DNA of 64,000 nt, from the NCBI GenBank assembly GCA_964353855.1, contig CAYGWX010000008.1, forward strand, positions 1,958 through 65,957, read 5' to 3'. This document shows, one piece after another, positions 9,307-57,326 of this stretch (position 1 is the stretch's first letter; each line of letters begins with the position of its first letter). The stretch is from an uncultured bacterium. GTDB lineage: Bacteria; Edwardsbacteria; CAYGWX01. The translations under genes and the position numbers were made by a program. The notes below the pieces were generated by a model, which did not search any database, had not been told where the DNA came from, and saw only the letters and a list, made by a program, of their open reading frames with translations.

Positions 9307-9322
9307 ACACTATATGTTGTGG
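9307..9322. promoter_or_regulatory. NrdR-box-like palindrome (one of up to four in 9054-9322)
   Basis: ACACTATATGTTGTGG versus consensus acaCwAtATaTwGtgt; similar boxes at 9054, 9094 and 9266. Confidence 0.4.
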
Positions 9323-9358
9323 TTAGTTAAAAAGAATCAAGACGAAAGGAAAACGTCG

Positions 9359-9994
9359 TTGTTTCGTGGTTCAAAAAGCATTGTCCTGATAGGCCTTATC
9401 CTCCTCGTCGCGAGCGGGGCGTTAGCAGAACCCACGGGGAGTATCCTTGGTAGGGTGACAGACGCTAAGACGGGCGTGGTGCTACCCGATGCAGACGTGT
9501 TTATCTTGGACACAAAGAAGAATGCTGTTACGGATGAGAACGGCTACTTTGTAATAGAAAATGTTCCAGTAGGTACTTATACCCTTAAAGTTAAAATAAT
9601 TGGATATAAAGTTTCAGAAAAAACTGAAGCTACCGTTAACCAAGGCCGCACTACAATACAGGATTGCAAACTTGAACTGAAGAATCCCCCGTTAGAAGGT
9701 TCTACGACTATTGTTTCCACTGGTAAAATTACCGGCAAAGTGGAGGATGAAGGAACGTGGGAAGGACTGCCGATGGCGAAAGTGATTATAGTCGGCACAA
9801 AAATAAGCGTTACTACGGATTTGGACGGTAAGTTCACAATTGAAAACGTACCTGGTGGAACTTATAGACTTGAAGCAACGATGGTAGGTTTTAAGAGTTC
9901 AGTGGCAAAGCGCGTTCTTGTTATCCCAGGAAAAACCACGGTTAAAAAACTCAGACTAGAGATGGTTGTGTTTAAAAATTTTGTATTTTATTAA
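9359..9994 (+). CDS. Exported protein with two carboxypeptidase-regulatory-like (CarboxypepD_reg) domains, AT-rich, inserted in liv operon
   Basis: Two copies of G.I.G.V.D..T...LP.A.V.I..T......TD.DG.F.IENVP.GTY.L; likely TTG start at 9359 after GAAAGGA gives a clean signal peptide (ORF track starts 9314). Confidence 0.8.
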   Translation: MFRGSKSIVLIGLILLVASGALAEPTGSILGRVTDAKTGVVLPDADVFILDTKKNAVTDENGYFVIENVPVGTYTLKVKIIGYKVSEKTEATVNQGRTTIQDCKLELKNPPLEGSTTIVSTGKITGKVEDEGTWEGLPMAKVIIVGTKISVTTDLDGKFTIENVPGGTYRLEATMVGFKSSVAKRVLVIPGKTTVKKLRLEMVVFKNFVFY

Positions 9995-9996: not shown

Positions 9997-10773
9997 ATGA
10001 CTCTCCTTGAAGCCAAGAAAGTCACCAAACACTTCGGGGGCCTGAAGGCCCTCCACGAAGTGGACTTGAACGTCTCCTCAGGCGAGATCGTGGGGATGAT
10101 CGGGCCCAACGGGGCGGGCAAGACGACCTTCTTCAACTGCATCACGGGCATGCACCAGGCCACGAAGGGCGAGATCCAGTTCCACGGGAAGCACAGCCTG
10201 TGCGGCAAGCGCCCGGACGAGATCGCCAAATTGGGCATCGCCCGCACCTTCCAGAACATCCGCCTGTTCGGGGACATGACCGCCCTGGAGAACGTGATGC
10301 TGGGCCGGCACTGCCGGACCAGGGCCGGGTTCTGGGGCGCGGTGTTCACGCCCCCGGGTGTGCTCAAAGAGGAGCGCGAGACCGTGAAGCGGAGCCACGA
10401 ATTGCTCTCCTTCGTGGATCTGGCGGACTACGCCCAGGAGCGGGCCCGGAACCTGCCCTACGGGCTTCAGCGCAGATTGGAGATCGCCCGGGCCATGGCC
10501 ACAGAGCCGTCGCTCCTGTTCCTGGACGAGCCCGCGGCCGGGATGAACCCTCAGGAGGTGGGGGGCTTGATGGCCCTGATCCGCAGGATCCGGGACTCCG
10601 GGATCACCATCCTCCTGATCGAGCACCACATGAAGGTCGTGATGGGGATCTGCGAAAGGGTCGCGGTGCTGGATTACGGCCTGAAGATTGCGGAGGGGGC
10701 ACCCGCAGAGATCCAATGCGACCCCAAGGTCATCGAGGCCTACCTGGGCAAAGACGAGGAGTGCATCACCTAA
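9997..10773 (+). CDS. livG: Branched-chain amino acid ABC ATPase
   Basis: GPNGAGKTT, LPYGLQRRLEIARA, LDEPAAG. Confidence 0.95.
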   Translation: MTLLEAKKVTKHFGGLKALHEVDLNVSSGEIVGMIGPNGAGKTTFFNCITGMHQATKGEIQFHGKHSLCGKRPDEIAKLGIARTFQNIRLFGDMTALENVMLGRHCRTRAGFWGAVFTPPGVLKEERETVKRSHELLSFVDLADYAQERARNLPYGLQRRLEIARAMATEPSLLFLDEPAAGMNPQEVGGLMALIRRIRDSGITILLIEHHMKVVMGICERVAVLDYGLKIAEGAPAEIQCDPKVIEAYLGKDEECIT

Positions 10774-16339: not shown

Positions 16340-16453
16340 CAGGGGAGGCCGGGAATTGCTATGATGATTGCGGCGTCGGTAAACTGCATCCTGGAGACGG
16401 GGTGCGGCGAGTCAAAAGAACCCCCGATTCTATCGGGGCGCCTTTTTATTCCG

Positions 16454-16672
16454 AATCGGGAAGTCCCTAACCGGAATCGGGACGTCCCGGTCGGGGATAG
16501 GGACTTCCCTATCGGGAAGCGGGAAGTCCCGGATGGCAGGCAGGAGGTCCCGGATGGCAGGCAGGAGGTCCCGGATGGGAGGCGGGAGGTCCCGGACGGG
16601 AAGCGGGAGGTCCCGGATGGGAAGCGGGAGGTCCCGGATGGCAATCGGGAAGTCCCGGACGGGAATCGGGAA
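16454..16672 (+). repeat. 21-bp tandem array, about 10.5 units, each with an internal imperfect palindrome CGGGA(A/G/C)GTCCCG
   Basis: Consensus aa(g/t)cggga(a/g)gtcccgga(t/c)gg(g/c), contiguous with no spacers; open on + as (R-E-V-P-D-G-K/N)n in ORF 16361-16684. Confidence 0.9.
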
Positions 16673-16795
16673 GGGGGTGATTAAAGGGCTAAGCACAATC
16701 AGGTCAGTCAGTTAGGATGAAATACAAGGAGAAAGGAGCACCCGACCAAGATTTGGCCGGGTGGGTGAAAACCCCCAATCTGGAAGGAGGAGGAG

Positions 16796-17977
16796 ATGAG
16801 AAGGCTTTTTGGTTTTATCCTGATTCTGGCCTTCGCCGTGCCCGCCTCGGCCGGATGGGTGAGCCAGACCTCGGGGACAACCCAAATCCTTCAATCCGTC
16901 CATTTCCCCGTGGATGCCTCAACAGGATATGCTGTGGGGGGCTGGGGCACCATCCTTAAGACTACGGATGGGGGGGCGAGTTGGGATAGTTTGGCCTCTG
17001 GGACGACCTATGTCCTTTACTCGGTCCATTTCCCCGTGGATGCTTCAACCGGGTATGTCGTGGGGGCGGGCGGCACCATCCTCAAAACCACGAATGGTGG
17101 AACGAACTGGGTCCCTCAGAACTCGGGCACGCGCCGATGGCTTTACTCCGTACATTTCCCTGTAGATGCCTCTATCGGGTATACCGTGGGGTGGGTTGGC
17201 ACTATTCTCAAGACCACGGATGGTGGAGCGAACTGGACGTCCCAGCCCTCGGGCACAACCTATGACCTTACCTCTGTCCATTTCCCTGTGGATGCCTCTA
17301 CCGGGTATACCGTGGGGTGGGTTGGCACTATTCTCAAGACTACGGATGGGGGAGCGAACTGGGCTTCCCAGTCGGGCACAACCGTTGGGCTTCAATCTGT
17401 CCATTTCCCCGTAGATGCTCAAACCGGTTTTACCGTGGGGGGTGGTATGATCATCAAGACCACAAACGGTGGTTCGATCTGGAATAGCCTTTCTTACGTG
17501 CCCGCTGCCCTTGGCTCCGTACACTTTCCGGCGGATGCCCAGACCGGGTATGTCGTGGGGGATATGGGTACGATCATCAAGACCACGGACGGGGGCGCGA
17601 GTTGGACGAGGTCGGTCTCCGGGACGAGCAATTACCTTTTCTCCGTCCATTTTCCTATGGATACTCAGACCGGGTATGCCGTGGGGAGTGAAGGCACAAT
17701 CCTAAAAACCACGGACGGGGGGGCGAGCGGTGTGGAGAACGCAGAGGTTAGAGGTCAGAGGTTAGAGGTTAGAATAACCGCGAAACCGAATCCCTTCACC
17801 TCCTTCGCCACACTGCCCGGACACGAGGGGGAGCGGTTCAGCCTCTACGACGTCTCCGGGAGGAAGGTCGGGACCTACCGGGGCGACCGGGTCGGGGAGG
17901 GGCTTAAAGCCGGGGTCTACTTCCTGCGTTCATCGGACAGCAAAGACAAGCCCCTGCGGATTGTGAAGGTGAGATAA
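16796..17977 (+). CDS. Secreted YCF48/BNR-like 7-repeat beta-propeller with short T9SS-like C-terminal tail
   Basis: Signal peptide; 7 x ~42-aa SVHFPVDAxTGYxVGxxGTILKTTDGGxxW; tail PNPF...YDVSGR...GVYFL...RIVKVR. Confidence 0.9.
   Translation: MRRLFGFILILAFAVPASAGWVSQTSGTTQILQSVHFPVDASTGYAVGGWGTILKTTDGGASWDSLASGTTYVLYSVHFPVDASTGYVVGAGGTILKTTNGGTNWVPQNSGTRRWLYSVHFPVDASIGYTVGWVGTILKTTDGGANWTSQPSGTTYDLTSVHFPVDASTGYTVGWVGTILKTTDGGANWASQSGTTVGLQSVHFPVDAQTGFTVGGGMIIKTTNGGSIWNSLSYVPAALGSVHFPADAQTGYVVGDMGTIIKTTDGGASWTRSVSGTSNYLFSVHFPMDTQTGYAVGSEGTILKTTDGGASGVENAEVRGQRLEVRITAKPNPFTSFATLPGHEGERFSLYDVSGRKVGTYRGDRVGEGLKAGVYFLRSSDSKDKPLRIVKVR
17743..17773 (+). repeat. Heptamer array (AGAGGTT) x4 inside the CDS linker
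   Basis: agaggtt agaggtc agaggtt agaggtt, encoding EVRGQRLEVR. Confidence 0.8.
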
Positions 17978-29235: not shown

Positions 29236-29475
29236 ACAGGCTGTTCCCTTACGAGATTTCAAGGACTTACAAAGCAAGACGGAGGCCAACGGGTCGGGGG
29301 ACTTGAAAAATCTCGCCTCCTAACCTTTGGATTATAGAAAGCTTATAAAACCGGTGTCAAAATACTTTTCTCAAGAGGTTGAAAAACCGCCATTCTGCAC
29401 GTATATAGTAGAGGGACAGGGTATAAAACTCCCCCAACCTGCCAAACACCCCCAAAAACCCCAAAATCGCACCTT

Positions 29476-29541
29476 CAAACCCGAATCAAACCCGAACCAA
29501 ACCCGTACCAAACCCGTATGCACGCCCGTTAATCGCCCACT
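29476..29541 (+). repeat. 11-bp period array (CAAACCCG(A/T)A(T/C)) x4, drifting to a CGCCC motif
   Basis: caaacccgaat caaacccgaac caaacccgtac caaacccgtat gcacgcccgtt aatcgcccact. Confidence 0.85.
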
Positions 29542-29688
29542 CCTCCGGCACCCCTGCACCACCACGCGAAGGGTTAAGGAACGAGATGGGAATGGATTGG
29601 AATGGGTAGAGATGGGTGGTAACGAATGGAAAGAAAAGGGCTTAGAAACCCAGTCGCAGCCACAGCCCTGGAAAAGCCCCAAGGCCCC

Positions 29689-29717
29689 TTGATTTTCGGG
29701 GCCATATCGTCTATAAT
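29689..29717 (+). promoter_or_regulatory. Sigma-70-like promoter upstream of the island
   Basis: TTGATT-17 bp-TATAAT. Confidence 0.7.
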
Positions 29718-29863
29718 ACCAGACAGAAACTATACGTAGACAACACCCCTCGGGGACCCGCCGGGGCCCCGAAGGGTTGCGGTATTCGTTAGGAAAGGTA
29801 GAAATTCAGCCGATGCCACAACAATTAAAAGGTTTCCTATACTAATTTGGTTCCGGAAGAACT

Positions 29864-31042
29864 ATGAAAGATGTTATAGGTCCAATGGCTTTGAGATGTA
29901 GGGAAACACCATTGAGAGTGGGAGGAAACCGCCCTCTACAAGTTCTCGTTAGAAAGTGGGAGGGTAGTGCGCTTAACGAAGAGACTACCCTACACCAAAT
30001 TGCACCTTATATCGGGAAAATGAAATCTTCAATGGCCAGAACCCTGGTTTCCACGTTTACTCAAAAAGGGGAAATCCTATATGATCCATTTTGCGGATCA
30101 GGAACAGTTCCCTTAGAGGCCTGGGCTGCTGGGCGCAACATCATTGCCAATGATTTAAATCCCTATGCTGCCCTGTTAACTAAGGCAAAACTTAACCCGT
30201 GTCTAACAGTAGAAAAAGGATTTGCCGATATCAACCGGGTTGCTAAACATGTGCCCTATTTGGTACAGGAAATTGATTTGAGAAGAGTGCCTCAATGGGT
30301 TCGCTCTTTCTTCCATCCAGAAACCCTTCGTGAAACCATAGCATGGTTTCAGGTTCTGAAATCAGAAAGGTTATATTTTCTGTTATCATGCTTGTTAGGA
30401 ATTCTACATCATCAAAGACCGGGGTTCCTTTCATATCCGAGTAGCCATACAGTTCCTTACTTGCGTAATGCAAATTTCCCTCGCAGCTTGTATCCCGAAC
30501 TCTATGAATGGCGCAAAGTGAGAGAACGGTTGGAAAGGAAGGTTATGCGAGCACTAAAAAGAACACCGAACTTGGATTTCAGTTTAAATCGGGAATGCTA
30601 CGAGCGAGATGCCGCAAAATTTGTGCCAGAGAGAAAAGTAAATGCTATTATAACAAGTCCACCATATATGAGACAGTTAGATTATGGGCGAGACAACCGA
30701 CTTCGGCTATGGTTTCTCGGAATACAGGACTGGAGATTGCTGGATCACATTATTTCTCCTTCTAAGACAGGTTTCCTAGAACTTTTCAGAAATTGCCTAA
30801 AACTATGGTATAACATTTTAATTCCAAAAGGGCTTTGTGTCCTCGTATTAGGAGATACCTACACCCAAGAATACGAAAGTCGCCTCCCTGATGCAGCAAG
30901 TTACATCGCAAATAAAGAGGTTGGCGGGTATTCTGTAATTTGCAAACATTCCGAGGCTATACCAGATGACCGGCGTGTACGTCGAGGATGTCGAGGAAAC
31001 CTGACAGAGACAGTTCTTGTCCTGCGTAAAGAAGCGAGGTGA
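29864..31042 (+). CDS. Amino-methyltransferase, alpha-class N4-C/N6-A DNA MTase-like (motif I before motif IV)
   Basis: LHQIAPYIGKMKSSMA (motif X-like), YDPFCGSGT (motif I), DLNPYA, IITSPPY (motif IV), LVLGD; AT-rich. Confidence 0.85.
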   Translation: MKDVIGPMALRCRETPLRVGGNRPLQVLVRKWEGSALNEETTLHQIAPYIGKMKSSMARTLVSTFTQKGEILYDPFCGSGTVPLEAWAAGRNIIANDLNPYAALLTKAKLNPCLTVEKGFADINRVAKHVPYLVQEIDLRRVPQWVRSFFHPETLRETIAWFQVLKSERLYFLLSCLLGILHHQRPGFLSYPSSHTVPYLRNANFPRSLYPELYEWRKVRERLERKVMRALKRTPNLDFSLNRECYERDAAKFVPERKVNAIITSPPYMRQLDYGRDNRLRLWFLGIQDWRLLDHIISPSKTGFLELFRNCLKLWYNILIPKGLCVLVLGDTYTQEYESRLPDAASYIANKEVGGYSVICKHSEAIPDDRRVRRGCRGNLTETVLVLRKEAR

Positions 31043-33552
31043 ATAAAATGAAAAAAGTCATAAAAGATAAAGAACCCTATCTCGGATTTCAGCCTATAGG
31101 AAACTATTATCTGAAGAAAAAAGTTGACGAGGGCAAAATAGGCAGTGTTTACAAAGCTGTACGGACAGATCCGTATGATATCTTGGCGTGTAAGGTTATA
31201 CCAGAAGAAAAGCTAAAAAAGGGATGGGAAAGAGAGCTCGATAAAGTCGTGCGTCTGAGAGGAGTACCCAATGTCGTGGAGTACCACTTACACGGTTCAG
31301 GCATAGATAACAATAAGAGGCCATTCATTTGGATACTCTGGAACTTTATTGATGGAATCAACTTGAAGCAATTTCTTAACAAACCGGCATGGCCTTTAGA
31401 TATCGCTTTTATCGAAGGCATTGCAAACTCAATTCTTAAGGTCCTTTTTGCCTGTTCAAAAGTTGACATTCAACATGGAGACTTACATGAAGGCAACATT
31501 TTAATTTCAAAACCTGATCCCCGCTTACCTGGGAATCCGAGGACTATTTGGATATCAGACTTTGGTTATGGGGGATCCCATAACGAGGTGGAACCAAAAG
31601 ATGATTTCAGGCAGTTCTTTGCAATCATTTCTTCCCTCTTTCGAAGGATAGAACAAACAAAATTAAATCCCCGGGATCGTATTATGTTCCAAAAGACTGA
31701 GGCTTTCTTGAGAAAGAGAGTTTTGGAAGTCGATCCCACACAAGGACATTTTGTAGGCAACCCAGAGTCACTACTTAAGGATTTCAATAGTTTGGGGCAA
31801 GAAGCTGAGAGGGAAGTAGCAGCAGCGTCAAAGGGTGAAGAAACCCAAGAACCAGGCGACTATCTCTGGGCGGAGGCGCTGGGGTATCGGGCAGGTGAAT
31901 GGAAAAATCTGTTTGTGCCAGAATTCCTGGCCGCGCAAGATCTTTTAAGTAAGAATATCACGGTCCTTACCGGCGCCAGAGGGTGCGGGAAAACAATGGC
32001 TTTTAGGCGATTAACCGCTTATATGGACAAAGTTATTGGCGAACCATCAGGAGTTAGGGGAGCGAACCAGTTTATCGGTTTTTATCTCAATTGTAGGGAC
32101 CTGGTGGAGGCATTTCCATGGTTCCCGAGGCAACTTAATAATGGAACGATACAGCAGGTGATGCATTTCTTTCACCTATCTTGGTTTAACGAGATATGTA
32201 AAACACTAGCAATCTATGAATTCGATAGGCCTGAAGCTTTTGAATGGCTAGATGGATTTGTGTCAGGGATTTTCGGTAACAAGTATAACTCTCTTCCTAT
32301 TGGTGCGGATGTTTTAGCTCACGTTCGTGCCTTTCTTGAGGACGAAAAAGAAAAGTGCCGCCTGGAGGATATGGGCAAGAAAGAAGGCTTGTCCAATTGG
32401 CCACTTGCGAGAGGGGATTTTCTTGATAATCTTCAAACTCAACTTGAAGCGCACGTGCCGTTGATAGGTGAAAAGCCCCTATATCTTTTCCTTGATGACT
32501 ACACAATACCAATTGTTACGCTTGAGGTACAGCAAGTACTTAATTCCATAATTTTCAAACGACGAAGTAAACTATTTTTTAAAGTATCCACCGAATCAGC
32601 GAATAGTTTCGAAAGACACTGGTCAAACGGCAAGCCGTTAGAGCTCCATCAAGACTTTGAACTTATTGATTTAGCGACTGAAAGCCTTCACCAAGATGAC
32701 AAAGAGAAAGCGAATCTTTTAGATAAGATTTTTAGACCAAGGATAGATCGACACCCTCTTCTTAACAGAAAAGACCTTGGTCTTCATGATGTCCTTGGTA
32801 AAATGTCTATATCAAATAACGAACTTGCAAGACAATTGCGTGGGGCTGCTCAAGGAAGTAAAGAAAAAACAATTCATTATCATGGAGCTGAAGCATTCAC
32901 AGGCATGTGGACCAGCGATATAAGAATAATGATTCAGATGTTTGTTGATATGTTACGTGATGCTAACGGGGAATTAAATAAAGGAAACTACCTTATCCCA
33001 AAGCCTATACAGGATAAGGTTTACAGAACCGCTGGTGGTGAGTTCTTAATTTTTGCAGAATCTGTAACTAAACCCTCTAATTGGGAGAGAGGCCCGAGCT
33101 CCACAAGGCAGGGAGAGACCTACGGGAAACACCTCTGTGACATCGTTGAGGCCTTTGTAAAAGTATCACGATACGAGCTGACCCGAGGCAATCTTGTCTC
33201 TAACCAAGGCCGATTTAATCCAAAACAGGCATTCCGTTTAGAGATCATCGATAAGTTTGAACTCCCCGAAGTTGAGGCGGGATACTATGAGGGATTGGTT
33301 AGGTGGCACATTTTCTTGCAAGATTGGCGAGGCAAAAGTGTGCGCGGTATGATCACGCCGCGTTTATACTTGAATAGAGTTCTTATTCCATATGCCAATC
33401 TAACGTTCTCCAGTCACGATAACGTTCACCTCACAAACGAAGAGTTTATTTTATTGTTAAATAATCCAAAGGATTTCATAACACACTGGCAGAAAAAGAG
33501 ATCGAAGAATAAAAAGCGGAAACCAAACGGAATTTTATCTCTCCCTTTGTAA
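31039..33552 (+). CDS. Ser/Thr protein kinase fused to ORC/CDC6-like (STAND-type) P-loop ATPase
   Basis: Kinase: DEGKIGSVYKA, LACKVI, HGDLHEGNIL, DFG; ATPase: VLTGARGCGKT (Walker A), LYLFLDDY (Walker B); helical/wHTH-like C-terminus; start overlaps the MTase stop (GTGA). Confidence 0.85.
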   Translation: MNKMKKVIKDKEPYLGFQPIGNYYLKKKVDEGKIGSVYKAVRTDPYDILACKVIPEEKLKKGWERELDKVVRLRGVPNVVEYHLHGSGIDNNKRPFIWILWNFIDGINLKQFLNKPAWPLDIAFIEGIANSILKVLFACSKVDIQHGDLHEGNILISKPDPRLPGNPRTIWISDFGYGGSHNEVEPKDDFRQFFAIISSLFRRIEQTKLNPRDRIMFQKTEAFLRKRVLEVDPTQGHFVGNPESLLKDFNSLGQEAEREVAAASKGEETQEPGDYLWAEALGYRAGEWKNLFVPEFLAAQDLLSKNITVLTGARGCGKTMAFRRLTAYMDKVIGEPSGVRGANQFIGFYLNCRDLVEAFPWFPRQLNNGTIQQVMHFFHLSWFNEICKTLAIYEFDRPEAFEWLDGFVSGIFGNKYNSLPIGADVLAHVRAFLEDEKEKCRLEDMGKKEGLSNWPLARGDFLDNLQTQLEAHVPLIGEKPLYLFLDDYTIPIVTLEVQQVLNSIIFKRRSKLFFKVSTESANSFERHWSNGKPLELHQDFELIDLATESLHQDDKEKANLLDKIFRPRIDRHPLLNRKDLGLHDVLGKMSISNNELARQLRGAAQGSKEKTIHYHGAEAFTGMWTSDIRIMIQMFVDMLRDANGELNKGNYLIPKPIQDKVYRTAGGEFLIFAESVTKPSNWERGPSSTRQGETYGKHLCDIVEAFVKVSRYELTRGNLVSNQGRFNPKQAFRLEIIDKFELPEVEAGYYEGLVRWHIFLQDWRGKSVRGMITPRLYLNRVLIPYANLTFSSHDNVHLTNEEFILLLNNPKDFITHWQKKRSKNKKRKPNGILSLPL

Positions 33553-33590
33553 TAAAACGAAGATTATAGAGCGAAAGAAATAATTATACT

Positions 33591-34658
33591 ATGATTTGGC
33601 CTACCGTCTCTGTCGCAGAAAAACTGAAACCGACCTTAAAACGTCTCTTTATTGGGGCTTATGGATTTGAAAGACGCTCGCTAGGTTGGGTCAGCTACCA
33701 AAGGGAACAAGGAACAATATTGAGTGAATCTGTATTGTTTCGATATAAACACCCAAAAGGTATTAACCTTATCCATGAACTGAAGAAAAATCTCGGTACC
33801 CTTGGTGTTTCGAAGCCCAAAGAGGTTCCTTATAATGTTCGTTCACCCCATAACATCGAGGATATAATTGGTGAAAAGATGGATTCTGTTCTCCGCGGAA
33901 ATGAAGAAATTGTTGTAGATATATCTGCAATGACCAAACTTTTAATCCTTGCGTGCCTTTGCAAGTTGGCCAATTTCACGGGCACGGTCAGAATTGTATA
34001 CTCTGAGGCAGAGGATTATTCACCGACCCAAGAGGATTACGAGAAATCGAAAGATGTCATGGGAATGGTGGTTGAATTTCCAAGTCGAGGCTTTGAATCA
34101 ATAATAAGGTTAAAATGTCTCAGTAGCATCAGAATGCAGGGTCAGCCTGTAACGATCGTTGCATTTACTTCATTCAATGAACAACTAATTCGCCATATTC
34201 TTGGGACCATAAGCCCACATAGACTGTTATTCATCAATGGGAGACCACCAAAGGAAGAAAACTCCTGGAGGGAGAAAGCAACACAGGAAATCCACCAACG
34301 GCTTATTGAGAAATATCCGGCTGACAACCTCTTAAACGATAAGGGATTGCTTATGCGTGCGGCAAGTACGCTTGACTATAGGGAAACAGTCGAGCGCATT
34401 AATGAGATCTATAAGCAGTATGGAATTATAGAAAGAATTATATGCGTTGCCACAGGAAGTAAAATGCAAACCGTAGGATTGTTTTTCAGTAAGATTGCGC
34501 ATCCAGATATACACGTCGAATACCCAACACCTGATAGCTACTACGTAAAAGGGATGAGCAAGGGGGTTCACAAAGTTCATGAAGTTGTGGTTCCACAATT
34601 TTCGGAATTTCTAAAAATAATAAGGAAATCAGATTCGGTAATAACCGCTCCGGTTTGA
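33591..34658 (+). CDS. Uncharacterised alpha/beta protein, probably two tandem CARF-like Rossmannoid domains
   Basis: GAYGFERRS, IVVDISAMTK, IVYSEAEDY; then VAFTSFN, CVATGSKMQTVG, VEYPTPDSY; no signal peptide or TM. Confidence 0.6.
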   Translation: MIWPTVSVAEKLKPTLKRLFIGAYGFERRSLGWVSYQREQGTILSESVLFRYKHPKGINLIHELKKNLGTLGVSKPKEVPYNVRSPHNIEDIIGEKMDSVLRGNEEIVVDISAMTKLLILACLCKLANFTGTVRIVYSEAEDYSPTQEDYEKSKDVMGMVVEFPSRGFESIIRLKCLSSIRMQGQPVTIVAFTSFNEQLIRHILGTISPHRLLFINGRPPKEENSWREKATQEIHQRLIEKYPADNLLNDKGLLMRAASTLDYRETVERINEIYKQYGIIERIICVATGSKMQTVGLFFSKIAHPDIHVEYPTPDSYYVKGMSKGVHKVHEVVVPQFSEFLKIIRKSDSVITAPV

Positions 34659-34777
34659 ACTCCTCCATTTCTGATATTGCCCTTTTCAAATTAAGTGCTA
34701 TTTTAGTGACCTTTTGAAAAGAGGCGTCCGTAAAAAGGGGTCGCCTCTTAAAATCACGGACTGTAAACCTTTAACTA

Positions 34778-35437
34778 ATGTCTAAACTCCGCAAACCCCT
34801 TTTCTCCGACGGCGCCACCGGCAAGATGGACGAGGAGACCGTGTTCTCCTCCCGCCTGGGAAAATCCTACCGCAAGCGCTACGCCAAGCCCAAACAGCCC
34901 AACTCAGAAAGCCAGAAAGAGTCCAAGGCAACCTTCGCCTGGGCCATCAAGACCTGGCAGAAAGAACTCACGGACGAAGACCGGGAAGCCTGGAGGGCCT
35001 TTGCCAGAAAGAACAAAGACGTAGACCCGTTCACCCTGACCCAGATCAAACCCCCGGCCCATACCCTGTTTCTCCGCTACGCAACCCAGGCCAAGCGGGC
35101 CGGATATCCGGCTCCGAAGAAACCACCACAAGGCCCCAGGCCCCAGCCCCTCAGCTTCACCCTGGTCAAGAAGGGAAAGGGAGTCAAGATTAGCTGGAAA
35201 GCAGAGAAGGAAGGCGTCGTAGAGTTCCGGATGGCCGTCACCCAGCCCTGGGTGAAGCCCTGGCAGACCTGCTATCGGATCCACTCCTACGTCCCCATGA
35301 AAATCGGAGAGCACTTCGTCAGCCCCTTGGAGCCCGAGAAGAAATACACCTTTCTGGCAAGGGTGCTGAGTCCGGAGGGTCAGGCTGGAATATCTACTAA
35401 GGGAACCATCGTCCTATATAAGGACGAAGACCAATGA
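34778..35437 (+). CDS. Basic cytoplasmic protein: DUF6266-like N-terminus plus FN3-like C-terminus
   Basis: GATGKM..TVFSSRLGKSY.KRY.KP.QPNSESQ...KATF; C-terminal KISW...LEPEKKYTFLARV. Confidence 0.5.
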   Translation: MSKLRKPLFSDGATGKMDEETVFSSRLGKSYRKRYAKPKQPNSESQKESKATFAWAIKTWQKELTDEDREAWRAFARKNKDVDPFTLTQIKPPAHTLFLRYATQAKRAGYPAPKKPPQGPRPQPLSFTLVKKGKGVKISWKAEKEGVVEFRMAVTQPWVKPWQTCYRIHSYVPMKIGEHFVSPLEPEKKYTFLARVLSPEGQAGISTKGTIVLYKDEDQ

Positions 35438-36372
35438 ACAAACATTGGATAATCAGCTACCTGCTCGGGGGCTTTCTGCTGCTTACAGTCCCGACTTCTA
35501 AAGCGATGACGATATCACCCGCAGAGAAGAAAAGCGAAGCCTATCACCACTACCTACGTGGCCGACACTACGATGTAAAGGGAGCGTACGACAAGGCTGT
35601 AAAAGAACTACGCGAAGCAGCCCGTCTAAACCCCGGTTTTGACCGCGTACACCTAATACTCGGGCAGTCGCTCTTGAATCGGGGAAGCTACAAGGAAGCC
35701 GAGGCCGTTTTGCGGGAGGCCCGGCGAAGGCACCCTGAGGATCCCGCTAACCATGAGCCTCTTGGGAAAGCCCTTGAAAAACAAGGCAAATTGACCGAAG
35801 CCACACGGGAGTATCGAGAAGCCATACGGCTAACTCCCAATTGGGTTTCTGCCCATTACAGCCTCGGCAAGGCGCTCCGCAAACAGAAGAAATACGAAGA
35901 GGCTGAAAAAGAATACCGAGAAGCCCTACGGCTACAGGGCTACCATGATATCTGGATCAACCTTGGGTTGGTTGTTTTGCTTGGGGAGGATGGAAAGAAC
36001 AAAAAAGGGCAGGAAGAATTTTACAAAGCCATCAAGAAGGCCAGCACAGTTATGGATGGAGATATCTGGATTGATATGAATTACAAATTTATAATCAAAA
36101 AACAAAGGGAATATCTGGATAAGGAGAATGCGTATCGGGCTGACCTTAGGAATATCGCGAACGAGGCCAAGGATTTCTACATAGCGTCCTCTTTCTTCGC
36201 CTCTTGGGGCCAAAATGAGGAAGCCTTAATGAGTCTGAATACTGCCATTGAAAAGGGATTCGGATTATGGCCCCTCATGACCAAAGATGCCGATTTGGAT
36301 GAAATTAGAAAGGAGCCGGAGTTTAAGAAACTCGCCCAGACGGTCAAGGAGCGGTGGGAGATGAAGCAGTGA
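35434..36372 (+). CDS. Exported TPR protein with a TPR-end-type C-terminal motif
   Basis: Signal peptide; repeated A..EYREA.RL.P TPRs; EEALMSLNTAIEKGF.....KDADLDEIRKEPEFKKL; ATGA overlap with previous gene. Confidence 0.85.
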   Translation: MNKHWIISYLLGGFLLLTVPTSKAMTISPAEKKSEAYHHYLRGRHYDVKGAYDKAVKELREAARLNPGFDRVHLILGQSLLNRGSYKEAEAVLREARRRHPEDPANHEPLGKALEKQGKLTEATREYREAIRLTPNWVSAHYSLGKALRKQKKYEEAEKEYREALRLQGYHDIWINLGLVVLLGEDGKNKKGQEEFYKAIKKASTVMDGDIWIDMNYKFIIKKQREYLDKENAYRADLRNIANEAKDFYIASSFFASWGQNEEALMSLNTAIEKGFGLWPLMTKDADLDEIRKEPEFKKLAQTVKERWEMKQ

Positions 36373-37145
36373 AAAGGCATCTCTACCCCGCAACCCTTCT
36401 GGCCGCCGTTCTATTTCTCCCGAGCTGCGCGACGATGGCGTTCAGGGAGCATTATGATCGCGGGCTCAGGCTCATGGACCGGGAGAAGTATGAAGAGGCG
36501 CAGAAAGAGCTCCGGGAGGCCGTGCGGCTGAGGCCGATGGACGCATGGGCTCATTATCAATTTGGCGAGGCGATCTGTGAGAGGGGAGGAAATTCCGAGG
36601 GCTTGGGGATAGACGGAGAGGATGGGTACCATGAGTACGAAAAGGCTGCAGATCTCTTTCGCTTGACACTTAAAAGCAAGCCGAACGATATTAAGGCCCT
36701 TTACGGCCTCGGGCTCTCGCTTGGGGGACAGGACAATACCGATTCCGCTGCCGGGACATTCAGGGAGGTCATCAGGCTCAAGCCCGATCACCTTGACGCC
36801 CACTTCGCCCTGGGACGTATGTATTGGAAGGAAGGGAAGTACGAGGAAGCCGAGAAAACCTGCCGGGCCTGCATCCGATTAGCGCCCAAGAACCCCGGAG
36901 GCTATCTCAACCTCGCTATGATCCTGATGCTTTTTGAGGGAAAATACGAGGAGGCTGAAAAGGCCTACCGGGAAGTTCTCCGCTTAAAACCCAATGACAT
37001 AAATGTCCTCATGGGGCTTGCCGAAAGTCTGGACGCCCAGAAAAGACGCAAGGAAGCCCGCTCCTACTGGGAAAAGGCCTTGAAGCACGCCAAAACGCAG
37101 TGGGAAATAGACCGAACCAAACGTCGCCTAGCGGAACCGGATTGA
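36369..37145 (+). CDS. TPR lipoprotein
   Basis: GTG at 36369 overlapping the previous TGA; lipobox FLPSC; 5-6 TPRs; ends KRRLAEPD. Confidence 0.85.
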   Translation: MKRHLYPATLLAAVLFLPSCATMAFREHYDRGLRLMDREKYEEAQKELREAVRLRPMDAWAHYQFGEAICERGGNSEGLGIDGEDGYHEYEKAADLFRLTLKSKPNDIKALYGLGLSLGGQDNTDSAAGTFREVIRLKPDHLDAHFALGRMYWKEGKYEEAEKTCRACIRLAPKNPGGYLNLAMILMLFEGKYEEAEKAYREVLRLKPNDINVLMGLAESLDAQKRRKEARSYWEKALKHAKTQWEIDRTKRRLAEPD

Positions 37146-37155
37146 GGGAGGAGGA

Positions 37156-37944
37156 ATGAAATACGCCTCCCTGGCTTTGCTTCGGCGTCGTTTGCTTTTA
37201 CCAGCCCTCACCCTCGGGGGTCTACTCCTTTTCGCCTTACCCGTCCCGACGAGAGCAAGAGATAGTCTCCAGCTGATACTCGACAGCGCAAAGGTTCATC
37301 TCAAGGAAGGGAAAACCTATCTTCAGCAAGGATATTATTCCCAGGCAGAGAATGAATTCCGTGAGGCGGATCGGTTAAATCCTAACCTGGATAGGGTTCG
37401 ACTTTACATCGGGGATGCTCTTAGAGGCCAGCTCATGTATCAGGCGGCGGAGAGGGAGTATCGCGGGATCATCCAGTCTGACCCAAAGGATACCACCGCG
37501 CGCTATCGCCTTGGGGAGATGTTTAAGTGGCAGAGGAAGTTACCTGAGGCGGAACAGGAATATCACGAAGTCATCCGGATGTACCCCGGCGATTATCTTC
37601 CCCACTTCAAACTCGCAGAGGTGCTGAGGTGGGAGGAAAAGTACTCGGAGGCGGGATCGGAATACCGGGAAGCCATCCGTTTGAACCCCCGGATTAATGA
37701 AGCATATTGGTCTCTTGGTTATATTTTGGAAATGAAAGGTTCCTACGTGGAAGCAGAAACCGTATACCGCGAAAAGCTGCGTTTAACACCTAGTGACGAA
37801 CACTCTGTGATGTATTTAGCTGCCAACTTGGATAAGCAAGGCCGGCGCAAAGAGGCCAGGCCGCTTTGGATACGCGCCTCGAAAAAGTTTAAGTGGGGAG
37901 AACCGAATTATATCATTAAAAAGCGCCTCGCAGAGCCGGATTGA
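37156..37944 (+). CDS. Exported TPR protein (paralog of 36369-37145)
   Basis: Signal peptide; TPRs; ends KKRLAEPD. Confidence 0.85.
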   Translation: MKYASLALLRRRLLLPALTLGGLLLFALPVPTRARDSLQLILDSAKVHLKEGKTYLQQGYYSQAENEFREADRLNPNLDRVRLYIGDALRGQLMYQAAEREYRGIIQSDPKDTTARYRLGEMFKWQRKLPEAEQEYHEVIRMYPGDYLPHFKLAEVLRWEEKYSEAGSEYREAIRLNPRINEAYWSLGYILEMKGSYVEAETVYREKLRLTPSDEHSVMYLAANLDKQGRRKEARPLWIRASKKFKWGEPNYIIKKRLAEPD

Positions 37945-53414: not shown

Positions 53415-54821
53415 ATGAACAATCGGAGGGCGAAGGTCGTTGTCCTTCCGGCCTTGCTCCTGATGATCCTTCTCCCCTTTGGGTGCAGCCGGAGGAGAGA
53501 TGTCTTCACCAACCCCAAGTCCCCTCATGTCGCGGGATGGAACGAGGAGTTCTCACCCAACTTCCACGGCATCTTCGTGAAGCGGGACGGCGGGCCCTTT
53601 GGGTGCATCACCTGCCATGCCGTGAGCCAGACGGATTCGTCCAGCTACTGCTTCACCAATTGCCACTACGGCCCCTCGGGACGGCCCCATCCTCCGGCAT
53701 GGACGGATTCGTCCACGGCCGAGTTTCACGGGATCCGGGTGGTGAACTACGGGCTGAACACCGTGGTCAACGGCCGGACCCGGCCTTGTACGGACTGCCA
53801 TTACGTGGACAACAAGGACACGCTCTCCTGGTGCTTCCGGGCCTGCCACGACGGTCCGGTGGGCGCGAACCGGCCTCCCCGGAATCCAACGCTTCGGGGC
53901 CACCGCGAAGCCTGGAAGACGGCGGCCAATCCCCGCTCGCTCATCTTCCACGGGAACTACGTGGCCTCCGCGGGCTTCGCTTACTGCAAGGACTGCCACG
54001 GGTCCGATTTCCAGGGCGGGATCGGCCCCTCCTGCGGAAAGCCAGGCTGCCACGACTTCGGGGGCGGCTACACCTTCTTCCCGCACCCGTCATACTGGAA
54101 GACGGATTCTTCCTCTCAGGGGTTCCACGGCCGCTTCGTGCTTCAAAAGGGGAAAGGCATCTGCCAGGCCTGCCACGGAAAAGATTTCGATGGTAAATAT
54201 AACCAAAAGCCTTGTTTCCCCTGTCATGACTATCCCCATCCGGCTCCGGCCATCTATAATGACACCCTCCAGGACAGATTCCACGGAAGACAACTCTGGC
54301 GTTTCGGCAACGAAGCCTGCAAGGTCTGCCACGGGGACACCTCGACCCTGTTCCGAGGGGGACGGGTGAATGTGGGCTGTCTCACTCTCGCCTGCCATCC
54401 CGGGGGGTCGGCCCATGGTCTGCCAGGACCCTCCACGCGTTGGAAACAAGGGCCCCGGACCAATCCTCTCTGGCATGGGAATCAAGTGGGGCGGGATGGC
54501 TTTGCAGCCTGTCGTACCTGCCATGGAGCCAATTTCGATTATAGCGCGCAAGGCTTAGGGCATGGATGCGCATACTTCAACCCTCCCTGCCACGAGCAAT
54601 ACCAGTTTAAACAATACGGGATCAGTCCCCATGAAACACGGGCCTGGAACAGAGGGGATACCCTTCCTCCGCCTCAGGATACGACCCATGCCTGGTGGGT
54701 CAACGCAGTCCGGCACCACACTTATACCGATTGCACCTATTGCCACTTCTCCGCGACCCACTACTGGCGCGACGGAACCCAGGTGTCCAGTTGCCAACCC
54801 TCCTGTTGCCACGGATTTTGA
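53415..54821 (+). CDS. Multiheme c-type cytochrome lipoprotein, up to 14 hemes in 7 diheme repeats
   Basis: Lipobox LLPFGC; 8 CX2CH plus CFTNCH, CFRACH, CGKPGCH, CLTLACH, CAYFNPPCH and CQPSCCH. Confidence 0.88.
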   Translation: MNNRRAKVVVLPALLLMILLPFGCSRRRDVFTNPKSPHVAGWNEEFSPNFHGIFVKRDGGPFGCITCHAVSQTDSSSYCFTNCHYGPSGRPHPPAWTDSSTAEFHGIRVVNYGLNTVVNGRTRPCTDCHYVDNKDTLSWCFRACHDGPVGANRPPRNPTLRGHREAWKTAANPRSLIFHGNYVASAGFAYCKDCHGSDFQGGIGPSCGKPGCHDFGGGYTFFPHPSYWKTDSSSQGFHGRFVLQKGKGICQACHGKDFDGKYNQKPCFPCHDYPHPAPAIYNDTLQDRFHGRQLWRFGNEACKVCHGDTSTLFRGGRVNVGCLTLACHPGGSAHGLPGPSTRWKQGPRTNPLWHGNQVGRDGFAACRTCHGANFDYSAQGLGHGCAYFNPPCHEQYQFKQYGISPHETRAWNRGDTLPPPQDTTHAWWVNAVRHHTYTDCTYCHFSATHYWRDGTQVSSCQPSCCHGF

Positions 54822-54990
54822 TAGGCGCATTCCCACTCTGGCAACTATCCCTGGCCTGGCTCCAACACTGATTCCCCTCCCCGGTCTGTAAAGGCTTTCG
54901 GGGAGGGGAAATGGGGGTCTTCTGCGCTTTCTTAAACCATTTACAGACCTCTCCTTGGTAACGATGTCTTGGTGCACCAACCGAAGCCAC

Positions 54991-55019
54991 TTGACAAATC
55001 CTGGTATTTGTGTTACTAT
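54991..55019 (+). promoter_or_regulatory. Sigma-70-like promoter upstream of the AraC-like gene
   Basis: TTGACA-17 bp-TACTAT. Confidence 0.7.
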
Positions 55020-55183
55020 ATTGAGATGATTTACTAAGATAATTACTTGATTTCCGGTCGGGTAGATGACCCAGTCGAGGAAGGTAACATAGAGAGGTCT
55101 TGTGTAAGGGGCTAAGTTGAAGACCGTGACAAGGTGGTCTCAGAGGATGGTCAGGGAGGAGGGTACTCTTTCTCTGGGCCTTT

Positions 55184-55678
55184 TTGTCTTTTGGGGCAGT
55201 CGCCTTGAATTTAATTCAGGGTCGGTGCTTCTTTTTATTCTTGAGAGGGCCTTTGGTTAACAGGAAATCAGGAGAGACTCCGAAGGGAGAGACGAAGCCC
55301 AAGGAGGTTTCCTGGAAGCTCCGCTGGGCGTTCACCCAGGCCGAGGAGATGGAACTGAGGGACCTCTGTCTGGAGAAACTATCCGCTGAGGCCGGACTCT
55401 CCAAATGTTACCTCTCGCGGAACTTCCCGCTCATCGCAGGCTACTCCTTTGAGGAGTATCGGAAGAACCGGCGCATCACCGAGACCAAGAGGTTGCTCAC
55501 CGAGACACCCATGTTCCTGGAGCAAATCGCCTTCGCTCTCGGTTTCGCCCGCTTGGAGGATTTCACCATTTTTGGGGAGGAGACGACGGGGTACAAGCCG
55601 AAAGCCTTCCGGGACTACTACGTGGCGAATGGGAGGTTCCCGCCTGACAAGGGGGGTGCAACAAAACCGCTAAAATAG
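55184..55678 (+). CDS. Stand-alone AraC-type HTH protein (start uncertain)
   Basis: LEKLSAEAGLSKCYLSRNF...GYSFEEY...RITETKRLL.ET...LEQIAFALGF......F...TGYKPKAFR. Confidence 0.75.
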   Translation: MSFGAVALNLIQGRCFFLFLRGPLVNRKSGETPKGETKPKEVSWKLRWAFTQAEEMELRDLCLEKLSAEAGLSKCYLSRNFPLIAGYSFEEYRKNRRITETKRLLTETPMFLEQIAFALGFARLEDFTIFGEETTGYKPKAFRDYYVANGRFPPDKGGATKPLK

Positions 55679-55701
55679 CATTAAAACCGCACTTTTCGCA
55701 A

Positions 55702-57313: not shown

Positions 57314-57326
57314 TTGTTTACTTGTA

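What the first reader, a model, noticed from the sequence alone, without database searches (positions are those of the whole stretch)
29864..34658. Candidate new anti-phage/conflict system: DNA MTase + kinase-ORC/CDC6-like ATPase + tandem CARF-like protein
Seen: three co-directional genes (GTGA overlap, then a 38-bp gap), visibly much AT-richer than the host. They encode an alpha-class amino-MTase (DPFCGSGT/TSPPY) with no adjacent nuclease, an 837-aa kinase-ATPase fusion, and a 355-aa alpha/beta protein with CARF-like motifs. Established: Pgl/type II BREX also combines an MTase, a Ser/Thr kinase and an ATPase but needs PglZ, which is absent here; STAND-type ATPases act as infection sensors. 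From memory and unverified: ORC/CDC6-like ATPases occur in predicted conflict operons with a PRTase partner, so this could be a variant with an MTase in that slot and a kinase effector. Inference: self-marking by methylation, ATPase sensing, and phosphorylation-based abortive output modulated by a nucleotide-binding third subunit.
Basis: partly seen in the sequence, partly recalled or inferred. Interest (0 to 1): 0.9.

Follow-up and report, generated by a model that had tools for sequence, protein, structure and literature searches.

The report
Mobile methylase–kinase–CARF gene cassette
A self-contained 5-kb, three-gene cassette (DNA methylase, protein-kinase/ATPase fusion, tandem CARF-like sensor protein) has spread horizontally through many bacterial and archaeal phyla and looks like an uncharacterised, unnamed anti-phage immune system.

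Summary
Three co-directional genes lie at 29864-34658: A, a 392-aa SPPY amino-methyltransferase; B, an 837-aa Hanks kinase fused to an ORC/CDC6-like P-loop ATPase; and C, a 355-aa tandem Rossmann/CARF-like protein. They sit in a 42% GC island in a 61% GC genome. The real unit is 29676-34687: promoter, three genes and 29 nt. It recurs at 93.5% nucleotide identity in a different genomic context with sharp edges. A-B-C in this order occurs in every one of about 30 loci with enough flank, from more than 10 phyla including archaea, a plasmid and a prophage. Spacing is operon-tight, B and C co-evolve strongly (rho 0.90), all catalytic residues are invariant, and dN/dS is 0.17-0.27. Some copies sit in defence islands, and some are IS-disrupted or decayed. 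C is sometimes fused to TIR, metallophosphoesterase or histidine-kinase domains. No named system matches: Pgl/BREX-2 and MADS membership tests fail. Distant relatives of B and C do appear as "CARF6" profile architectures in PADLOC-DB. Best reading: a methylation-linked, kinase-output defence system gated by a CRISPR-independent CARF-like sensor. Function is inferred, not shown. Interest is moderate to high.

The parts
29676..34687 (+). The transferable unit: promoter, leader, genes A-B-C and 29 nt of 3' tail
   Evidence: blastn gives 93.5% identity over 5014 nt to L044 6007-11019, with no similarity on either side. The left edge is shared with L045. GC is 0.424 against 0.607 for the rest of the window.
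29689..29717 (+). Sigma-70-like promoter (TTGATT-17-TATAAT) at the very start of the shared unit
   Evidence: Consensus scan, 10 of 12 matches. Both hexamers are conserved in the window, L044 and L045. Function was not tested.
29864..31042 (+). Gene A: 392-aa alpha-type (motif I before motif IV) SPPY amino-methyltransferase, probably a DNA MTase
   Evidence: Pfam N6_N4_Mtase, UPF0020 and MethyltransfD12. PADLOC type II MTase profiles to 2.4e-21, one spanning aa 32-294. Motif conservation. NCBI names for homologues are 'DNA adenine methylase'.
31039..33552 (+). Gene B: 837-aa kinase / ORC-CDC6-like ATPase fusion (alternative ATG start at 31048)
31096..31833 (+). B, Hanks-type Ser/Thr kinase domain (aa ~20-265)
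   Evidence: Pkinase E 8e-11. Foldseek matches to PknI, PknB, GAK and YabT at TMt 0.55-0.67. K52, E66, H146-x-D148, N153 and D174-F-G are invariant in 27 sequences, including 30-35% identity clades.
31906..32766 (+). B, P-loop NTPase domain of the ORC-CDC6-like family (aa 290-576)
   Evidence: PF24389 hit in 23 of 23 family members. Walker A GARGCGKT (312-319) and Walker B LFLDDY (D486, D487) are invariant.
32767..33549 (+). B, conserved C-terminal region of unknown fold (aa 577-837) with an invariant Arg cluster (R755, R764, R769, R775) and D762
   Evidence: This holds the most conserved block of B (aa 760-780, 0.86). Residues are invariant. AF2 confidence is low here, and there is no Pfam or PDB match.
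33591..34658 (+). Gene C: 355-aa tandem Rossmann/CARF-like protein
   Evidence: PADLOC CARF6 profile 3.8e-13. AF2 pLDDT 88, pTM 0.90. Foldseek hits to Cam1, Csm6, Can1 and Can2.
33591..34010 (+). C domain 1 (aa 1-140) with the CARF signature D110-x-S112-x-x-T115-K116 after strand 4
34143..34640 (+). C domain 2 (aa 185-350) with the conserved T288-G-S290-K291-M-Q293-T294 motif after strand 4'

Best explanation
This is an autonomous, horizontally mobile three-gene immune (conflict) cassette. Shown: it moves as a discrete 5.0-kb unit with its own promoter. A-B-C linkage, order and tight spacing are conserved across bacteria and archaea. B and C co-evolve tightly. Every catalytic residue of the MTase, the kinase and the P-loop NTPase is conserved, and so is the CARF-type pocket signature of C. 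Inferred mechanism: A methylates a fixed DNA motif, marking the host genome as self. B and C form a complex. C is a pseudo-dimeric tandem CARF, as in Can1, and it binds a nucleotide-type ligand or infection cue. That binding gates B's ATP-driven switch, and B's Arg-rich C-terminal domain may read DNA or its methylation state. Activation turns on the Hanks kinase, which phosphorylates host and/or phage proteins to arrest phage replication or the infected cell. In variant cassettes the same sensor C is wired directly to other outputs (TIR, metallophosphoesterase, histidine kinase).
For: Unit and mobility: the window shares 93.5% nt identity with L044 over exactly 29676-34687, and the flanks are unrelated. 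The cassette is AT-richer than its flanks in 24 of 24 loci. Contexts range from trp/nuo housekeeping genes to defence islands. Linkage: A-B-C occurs in all loci with enough flank, with gaps of -17 to +38 nt in 22 of 24. Co-evolution: Spearman of pairwise identities is 0.90 for B-C and 0.69 for A-B. Selection: dN/dS is 0.17-0.27, and catalytic and pocket residues are invariant even at 30-35% identity. Conflict context: neighbours include MmeI-type RM + Fic + PLD-SNF2 + a PIN toxin-antitoxin pair (L033), SNF2 + Eco57I (L001), BrxL/PglZ (L022), KAP NTPase (L014), a Schlafen-type helicase (L018), caspase-TPR (L015), and a type I-like RM + Abi_2-like gene (L044). One copy lies inside a prophage structural-gene block (L036) and one on a plasmid next to a restriction endonuclease (L034). 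Copies are IS-disrupted (L012) or decayed (L025-27). Sensor role of C: CARF profile and fold matches; in-cassette C-TIR, C-Metallophos and C-HisKA/HATPase fusions; and the PADLOC profile 'CARF_STK_AAA' (1187 positions), which aligns colinearly with B followed by C. This implies that fused B-C proteins exist.
Against: There are no functional data of any kind. No enzyme that could make a cyclic-oligonucleotide ligand is in the cassette or its neighbourhoods, so C's ligand is unknown. The MTase's putative target-recognition region is as conserved as its catalytic core, unlike the diversifying TRDs of RM and BREX MTases. DNA has not been demonstrated as its substrate, and the strongest single Pfam hit is the RNA-MTase-related UPF0020, covering the motif I region only. 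Many loci lie among ordinary housekeeping genes, and defence-island enrichment was not tested statistically. B shows no hypervariable sensor region. None of 50,697 sequenced phage genomes carries it, and only 1 of 72,556 plasmids does.
Confidence: 0.5

Rival explanations
1. A selfish epigenetic addiction module rather than a dedicated anti-phage system. In this reading the kinase-ATPase/CARF pair is a toxin that is held in check only while the genome carries A's methylation, so loss of the cassette kills the cell. This is the logic of RM systems, or of Pgl, where PglX is toxic without PglZ.
For: The cassette is compact and promoter-bearing, with sharp edges and no mobility gene. The MTase is always first and always retained. 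A co-evolves with B (0.69). Distribution is patchy, with many copies outside defence islands.
Against: It does not explain the CARF-type sensor or its TIR and other effector fusions. Decayed copies have lost the kinase and ATPase part of B, and the MTase either persists (L025) or is absent too (L026). That is the expected route of decay for either model. Addiction and defence are not mutually exclusive.
Confidence: 0.15
2. An ancillary effector that listens in trans to cyclic-oligonucleotide signalling made elsewhere in the genome, by type III CRISPR Cas10 or a CBASS-like cyclase. C would bind cOA and activate B's kinase, and the MTase would be an unrelated passenger or regulator.
For: C's best structural and profile matches are cOA-binding CARF proteins: Cam1 bound to cA4/cA6, Csm6, Can1 and Can2. 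The CARF pocket signature is invariant.
Against: No cas, CRISPR array or cyclase gene was seen in the window or next to any of about 30 cassettes. The cassette transfers alone between phyla and domains, so it cannot rely on a host cyclase. The MTase is strictly linked and co-evolving.
Confidence: 0.1
3. A non-immune epigenetic or signalling module that regulates host physiology, for example methylation-dependent control of replication or transcription with Ser/Thr phosphorylation as the output. ORC/Cdc6-like ATPases are replication-initiator relatives.
For: The TRD-like region is conserved and not diversifying, as in the housekeeping MTases Dam and CcrM. Many neighbours are housekeeping genes (gyrB, rpoC, polA, nuo, trp). 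One variant fuses C to a histidine kinase.
Against: It is rare and patchy, with 55-70% identity across bacterial and archaeal phyla. It is always AT-richer than its host. It occurs on a prophage and a plasmid, in defence islands, and as IS-disrupted or decayed copies. A TIR fusion exists.
Confidence: 0.1
4. A phage or mobile-element offensive module. The MTase would protect the element's DNA from host restriction, and the kinase would reprogram the host, as the T7 gp0.7 kinase does.
For: A full cassette of the distant clade lies between head and tail genes and the tape-measure gene of a predicted phage (L036). A distant kinase-ATPase fusion sits beside a prophage CI repressor (L038).
Against: There was no hit in 50,697 deposited phage genomes. 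Most copies are chromosomal with no phage genes nearby. Moron and immunity-region positions are typical of prophage-borne defence cargo.
Confidence: 0.05

Closest known systems
Pgl / type 2 BREX (PglX MTase, PglW kinase, PglY/BrxC ATPase, PglZ phosphatase)
   Same: Both combine a DNA MTase, a Hanks-type Ser/Thr kinase and an ORC/Cdc6-type P-loop ATPase without a recognisable nuclease. PglW itself is a kinase followed by a (degenerate) STAND/ORC-Cdc6-like domain (PMC12839542), the same domain order as B.
   Different: There is no PglZ, BrxD or BrxHI. A is a small 392-aa SPPY MTase, not a ~1200-aa PglX. B's P-loop is intact (Walker A and B invariant), whereas the PglW domain is inactive. B hits no PglW, PglY, BrxC or BrxD model in PADLOC even at E<=1. 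A CARF-like third subunit is unknown in BREX. The system has three genes rather than six.
MADS (methylation-associated defence system, mad1-mad8)
   Same: It is a methylation-associated system that includes a protein kinase. B's kinase domain hits PADLOC mad6 (4.5e-13), and A's motif I region hits mad2 (1.7e-6).
   Different: The similarity is at domain level only. NCBIfam MAD6 scores 19.8 bits against a cut-off of 460. None of the other mad genes is present, and MADS is an eight-gene locus.
Type III CRISPR CARF ancillary effectors (Can1, Csm6, Cam1, Can2) and the 'CARF6' architectures CARF_STK_AAA and CARF_CARF_CARF among PADLOC-DB profiles
   Same: C has a Rossmann-like CARF-type fold, the [DN]x[ST]xxx[RK] signature, and a tandem-domain pseudo-dimer as in Can1. 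The sensor-plus-effector logic is shared, and variants fuse C to a TIR domain. B and C hit the CARF6 profiles at 4e-17 and 4e-13.
   Different: There is no CRISPR, Cas10 or cyclase association. The effector is a separate kinase-ATPase polypeptide, and an MTase is obligatorily linked. The matches to CARF6 profiles are partial (B aa 480-662 only), so this is a sister family rather than the catalogued one. The source paper (Makarova et al. 2020, PMC7498327) was not available to read.
Kinase-based abortive-infection defences (Stk2, PD-T4-6)
   Same: Both use a Hanks-type Ser/Thr kinase as the presumptive immune output. B hits about 20 PD-T4-6 profiles (best 3e-9).
   Different: Those are single-gene kinases with no MTase, P-loop ATPase or CARF partner.
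STAND/AVAST-type NTPase sensors
   Same: Both have a P-loop NTPase switch fused N-terminally to an effector domain and C-terminally to a conserved domain of unknown fold.
   Different: B belongs to Pfam ORC-CDC6-like, with only weak nSTAND3 hits. It has no TPR-like or hypervariable sensor region, and B is uniformly conserved.

Membership tests
Pgl / type 2 BREX | A PglZ (alkaline-phosphatase family) gene in the locus | tested here: not met
   There is no PglZ in the cassette or among the window neighbours. Among about 21 loci only L022 has a PglZ/BrxL neighbour, which belongs to a separate adjacent BREX locus.
Pgl / type 2 BREX | Homology of the kinase and ATPase to PglW and to PglY/BrxC, and a PglX-type large MTase | tested here: not met
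   The PADLOC scan of B at E<=1 lists no PglW, BrxC, PglY or BrxD model. A (392 aa) hits type II MTase models, not PglX.
MADS | A multi-gene mad1-mad8 locus with proteins reaching the family thresholds | tested here: not met
   Only domain-level hits were found: mad6 at 4.5e-13 (kinase lobe) and mad2 at 1.7e-6 (motif I). NCBIfam MAD6 scores 19.8 bits against a cut-off of 460. No other mad genes appear in the flanks.
CARF superfamily (protein C) | A Rossmann-like fold resembling solved CARF domains | tested here: met
   The AF2 model (pLDDT 88) shows two alpha/beta domains. Foldseek probability is 1.00 to Cam1 (TMt 0.55, rmsd 4.2 A), TtCsm6 and Can1. Tandem USP proteins score similarly by E-value, so the fold alone is not exclusive.
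CARF superfamily (protein C) | The signature [DN]-x-[ST]-x-x-x-[RK] following strand 4 | tested here: met
   D110-I-S112-A-M-T115-K116 lies after strand 106-110. D, [ST] and [KR] are invariant in 26 sequences, including 30% identity clades.
CARF superfamily (protein C) | A match to curated CARF profiles | tested here: met
   PADLOC CARF6--CARF_CARF_CARF at 3.8e-13 over aa 18-332, plus 9 further CARF profiles. Pfam HFX_2341_N scores only 19.4 bits, below its cut-off of 30.
CARF superfamily (protein C) | Binding of a cyclic oligonucleotide | not testable with these tools
   This needs purified protein and ligand-binding assays.
Type III CRISPR / CBASS ancillary effector | Genomic association with Cas10, a CRISPR array or a CD-NTase cyclase | tested here: not met
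   None was seen in the window or in the flanks of about 30 cassettes. Genome-wide co-occurrence was not tested.
ORC/Cdc6-like P-loop ATPases (Pfam PF24389) | A profile match above the gathering threshold with intact Walker A and B | tested here: met
   82 bits against a cut-off of 27, and 23 of 23 family members match. GARGCGKT and DD486-487 are invariant. The arginine finger, sensor 2 and oligomerisation could not be assessed: the AF2 model has pLDDT 70 and there is no PDB sequence match.
Hanks-type Ser/Thr protein kinases | A Gly-rich loop, the VAIK Lys and alphaC Glu, HxD...N, DFG, and the bilobal fold | tested here: met
   G32/G35, K52, E66, H146-G-D148, N153 and D174-F-G176 are invariant. 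Foldseek aligns about 260-290 columns to PknI, PknB, GAK and YabT. Activity and substrates were not tested.
Type II restriction-modification | An MTase with motif I (FxGxG) and motif IV ((S/D/N)PP(Y/F)) plus a cognate restriction endonuclease | tested here: not met
   The MTase motifs are present and conserved, but no nuclease domain is found in A, B, C or their neighbours. Only the plasmid copy L034 has an annotated REase two genes upstream.
PADLOC-catalogued 'CARF6--CARF_STK_AAA' architecture | A full-length match to the 1187-position profile | tested here: inconclusive
   B matches profile positions 508-682 (4.2e-17) and C matches 956-1182 (4.8e-5). The matches are colinear but partial. This suggests a related fused family, not the same one.

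The most novel reading that the evidence does not exclude
This is the first CRISPR-independent CARF-gated protein-kinase immune system. A tandem-CARF sensor would control a kinase/ORC-like ATPase whose activity is licensed by an epigenetic self-mark from a dedicated MTase with fixed specificity. That would make it a minimal three-gene, PglZ-free counterpart of Pgl/BREX-2. It would also be a self-sufficient cargo unit exchanged between bacteria, archaea, plasmids and phages. Its ligand would be a new infection signal, not made by Cas10 or CD-NTases.
Probability: 0.3. Interest if true: 0.8.

Novelty: new variant of a known kind. Interest (0 to 1): 0.6.

Why it matters
If it is a defence system, it joins three themes that have been studied separately: epigenetic self-marking without a nuclease (BREX/Pgl, whose mechanism is still unresolved), Ser/Thr-kinase immune outputs, and CARF sensing outside CRISPR. 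It does so in only three genes, which makes it far more tractable than six- to eight-gene BREX or MADS loci. The unit is small (5.0 kb, with its own promoter) and present in cultured hosts. It is conserved enough that one structure or mechanism would cover bacteria and archaea alike. A CARF-like sensor with no linked cyclase also raises the question of what it senses. The in-cassette C-TIR, C-phosphoesterase and C-histidine-kinase variants offer natural experiments on how the sensor is wired to its outputs.

Tried and rejected
(1) Literature. The CARF classification paper (PMC7498327) is not held. The 2026 BREX survey (PMC12839542) describes the PglW kinase plus inactive ORC/STAND domain, but not this system.
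(2) The remembered ORC/CDC6-PRTase link could not be verified.
(3) Mobility signatures. The window has no tRNA. There is no integrase, terminal inverted repeat or target duplication at the unit's edges.
(4) The C-terminal region of B has no PDB sequence hit (best is McrB at E 0.26) and no Pfam domain beyond ORC-CDC6-like. Foldseek on full-length B returned only kinases.
(5) Leader RNA. There is no Rfam hit in the window, and the leader's fold is not significant (z -1.7).
(6) Dependence on BREX is rejected. Adjacency occurs only in L022, and the other Planctomycetota loci differ.
(7) A hypervariable TRD in A or a hypervariable sensor in B was not found.
(9) Sequenced phages have no homologue.
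Full report
OBSERVATION. A is at 29864-31042 (392 aa). B is at 31039-33552 (837 aa from a GTG that overlaps A's stop as GTGA). C is at 33591-34658 (355 aa), 38 nt after B's stop. Public gene calls start B at the ATG at 31048 (834 aa), so the 4-nt overlap is one of two possible starts. The island has 42.4% GC against 60.7% for the rest of the window.

DOMAINS. A carries motif I (DPFCGSGT, aa 74-81) about 185 residues before motif IV (TSPPY, aa 264-268). It hits N6_N4_Mtase, UPF0020 and MethyltransfD12 in Pfam, and REBASE-derived type II MTase profiles in PADLOC (best 2.4e-21; one spans aa 32-294). NCBI names several homologues 'DNA adenine methylase'. SPPY is more typical of N4-cytosine enzymes by general knowledge, so the modified base is open.

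B has a complete Hanks kinase. The Pkinase hit is 8e-11. Foldseek aligns 260-290 columns to PknI, PknB, GAK and YabT at TMt up to 0.67. A low-confidence linker follows, then a P-loop domain of Pfam family ORC-CDC6-like (82 bits against a cut-off of 27), then a roughly 260-aa conserved C-terminal region. That region has no Pfam or PDB match and low AF2 confidence.

C is modelled with high confidence (pLDDT 88, pTM 0.90) as two Rossmann-like domains. Its best single-domain structural matches are CARF sensors: Cam1 bound to cA4/cA6 (TMt 0.55, rmsd 4.2 A), Csm6, Can1 and Can2. Tandem universal-stress proteins have similar E-values. At sequence level C matches the PADLOC profile 'CARF6--CARF_CARF_CARF' across its whole length (3.8e-13). 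It also carries the CARF signature D110-x-S-x-x-T-K116 after strand 4 of domain 1 and a T-G-S-K-x-Q-T motif at the equivalent place in domain 2.

RECURRENCE. B has about 300 full-length homologues at 54-74% identity. The source names span Patescibacteria, Acidobacteriota, Kryptonia, Methanoperedens and Thaumarchaeota. C has 444 close homologues, and 758 cluster representatives in the deep profile search. All are named 'hypothetical' and none has a Pfam domain.

I examined gene neighbourhoods from look-ups, a scan of species-representative genomes (24 loci), IMG/VR and PLSDB. Every locus with enough flank has A, B and C in the same order and orientation. These include the cultured species Flagellimonas taeanensis and Undibacterium nitidum, two archaeal lineages, and a divergent clade (B 34-36% identical) in Planctomycetota.

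Intergenic gaps are -17 to +38 nt in 22 of 24 loci. The exceptions are an IS transposase inserted between A and B (L012) and a Bradyrhizobium plasmid copy in which kinase and ATPase are separate overlapping genes (L034). Pairwise identities of B and C correlate at rho 0.90, A-B at 0.69 and A-C at 0.61. The kinase K/E/HxD/N/DFG residues, Walker A and B, a C-terminal Arg cluster in B, and C's pocket motifs are all invariant. This holds even in the 30-35% identity clades.

THE MOBILE UNIT. A JGI contig (L044) carries a near-identical cassette (A 95.7%, B 89.3%, C 96.3% aa identity) in a different context. PD40 and Por-tail genes lie upstream. A type I-like M/S pair and a weak Abi_2-like gene lie downstream. 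blastn aligns the window and L044 at 93.5% over exactly 29676-34687, with nothing on either side, and the left edge is shared with L045.

The unit begins at a conserved TTGATT-17-TATAAT promoter-like site and ends 29 nt after C's stop. It has no terminal repeats, target duplication, integrase or tRNA. dN/dS between the two copies is 0.17, 0.20 and 0.27 for A, B and C. dS is uneven (0.14, 0.27, 0.06), which hints at recombination within the cassette. In 24 of 24 loci the cassette is AT-richer than its flanks, while tracking host GC (r = 0.88). This is the signature of a repeatedly transferred, partly ameliorated cargo.

CONTEXT. Several cassettes lie among defence genes:
- L033: MmeI-type RM, Fic, PLD-SNF2 helicase and a PIN toxin-antitoxin pair.
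- L001: STM3845, an SNF2 helicase and Eco57I.
- L022: BrxL and PglZ.
- L014: a KAP NTPase.
- L018: a Schlafen-type helicase.
- L015: a caspase-TPR protein.
- L044: a type I-like RM.

One distant-clade cassette lies between head and tail genes and the tape-measure gene of a predicted phage (L036). One is on a plasmid next to an annotated restriction endonuclease (L034). Others are clean insertions among housekeeping genes, for example between trp and nuo or next to gyrB, rpoC or polA. A PADLOC scan of 79 flanking proteins found defence genes in only a minority of loci, and I could not test enrichment statistically. Decayed copies exist (L025-27). No deposited phage genome carries a homologue.

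VARIANTS THAT INFORM MECHANISM. In three independent variants C carries an extra C-terminal domain while still following B in the cassette. These are a TIR domain (L039), a calcineurin-like metallophosphoesterase (L040), and a HisKA/HATPase_c histidine kinase (L041-43, with A and B intact). The PADLOC profile 'CARF6--CARF_STK_AAA' (1187 positions) aligns colinearly with B (positions 508-682) and then C (956-1182). This implies that fused B-C proteins exist in a related family. A very distant kinase/ORC-CDC6-like fusion sits beside a prophage CI repressor with no MTase (L038). Together these point to C as a sensor or input module that works physically with B, and to the kinase-ATPase as the ancestral core.

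MECHANISM (inference). My preferred model has four steps. First, A methylates a fixed motif, because its region between motifs I and IV is as conserved as the catalytic core. Second, B and C form a complex. Third, C, a pseudo-dimeric tandem CARF, binds a nucleotide-type cue. Fourth, B's ATPase switch, and perhaps its Arg-rich C-terminal domain reading DNA or its methylation state, activates the kinase, which phosphorylates host or phage targets to stop infection.

The weak points are these. C has no known ligand and there is no linked cyclase. The MTase substrate is unproven. There are no functional data. The rivals are an addiction module, a trans-acting cOA effector, a non-immune regulator, and a phage offensive module. 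Each is weighed in its own section of this report.

COMPARISON WITH KNOWN SYSTEMS. Pgl/type 2 BREX shares the MTase, kinase and ORC-type ATPase triad. Its PglW even has the kinase-then-ORC/STAND domain order (PMC12839542). Membership fails, however: there is no PglZ, B hits no PglW, PglY, BrxC or BrxD model, and A is not a PglX-type MTase. MADS shares only domain-level similarity, and NCBIfam MAD6 scores 19.8 bits against a cut-off of 460. C meets the fold, motif and profile criteria for the CARF superfamily, but the CRISPR or cyclase association is not met. No NCBIfam model (June 2026) names B or C. I could not read the 2020 CARF census, and the PADLOC profile names show it had catalogued related STK-AAA-CARF architectures. 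Whether it noted the MTase link is unknown.

VERDICT. This is a real, strongly conserved, horizontally mobile three-gene cassette. It is most likely an unnamed methylation-linked kinase defence system with a CRISPR-independent CARF-like sensor. I class it as a new variant of known kinds of system. It is a good, tractable candidate for experiment, but its function is not yet demonstrated.

Noticed in passing
window 29327-29675 (tandem repeat at 29476-29516): The ~350-nt non-coding stretch just outside the left edge of the mobile unit holds an 11-nt tandem repeat (CAAACCCGAAC x3.7), followed by GGAATGG-type repeats. It is not shared with L044 or L045, so it belongs to the host side of the junction. 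Its meaning is unknown.
   Followed up: partly
window 9314-9994: A second low-GC patch (0.45 against ~0.62) encodes a 226-aa secreted-looking protein with two internal repeats. It is wedged between a livM-like ABC permease gene (7892-9025) and a livG-like ATPase gene (9997-10773). It looks like an insertion into a transporter operon. Domain identity was not scanned.
   Followed up: no
window 34778-37944: Immediately downstream of the cassette is a 219-aa ORF with no Pfam or PADLOC hit. Three TPR proteins follow, at intermediate GC (~0.52). Two of them are paralogues ending in the same ...K(R/K)RLAEPD tail. This may be a separate acquired block. It is absent downstream of the cassette in L044.
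   Followed up: partly
window 16453-17441: Nested 21/42/63-nt tandem repeats (16453-16673) and a 126-nt repeat x4.3 (16898-17441). They are probably repeat modules within a coding region. Not examined.
   Followed up: no
window 53415-58514: A CxxCH-rich (multihaem-like) 468-aa protein, followed by two secreted proteins whose C-termini look by eye like type IX secretion sorting tails. L044's flank also has a Por_Secre_tail protein. This hints that the host is in or near the FCB group. Not verified with a profile scan.
   Followed up: no
L012 6642-8000: A 345-aa transposase gene on the minus strand is inserted between A and B of an otherwise intact cassette in a Chthoniobacter MAG.
   Followed up: partly
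L025 6802-9873; L026 8001-10190; L027 611-2373: These are decayed cassettes. B is reduced to its last ~240-370 residues, with the kinase and P-loop lost, while C is intact. A is retained in L025 and absent in L026.
   Followed up: partly
L038 6099-10031: A very distant kinase/ORC-CDC6-like fusion (21% identity to B; Pfam ORC-CDC6-like 9.5e-38) lies directly downstream of a prophage CI repressor (Phage_CI_repr + Peptidase_S24). No MTase lies upstream. The kinase-ATPase fusion is therefore broader than the three-gene cassette.
   Followed up: partly
window 29864-34658 vs L044 6196-10990: Synonymous divergence between the two near-identical cassettes is uneven (dS: A 0.14, B 0.27, C 0.06). This suggests recombination within the cassette rather than simple vertical divergence of the whole unit.
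   Followed up: no
L034 7962-10657 (Bradyrhizobium quebecense plasmid pBq66S1MBc): In this plasmid copy the kinase (246 aa) and the ATPase (652 aa) are annotated as separate genes overlapping by 4 nt. The split falls in the linker that AF2 models with low confidence in B. It may be a natural split or a frameshift.
   Followed up: partly
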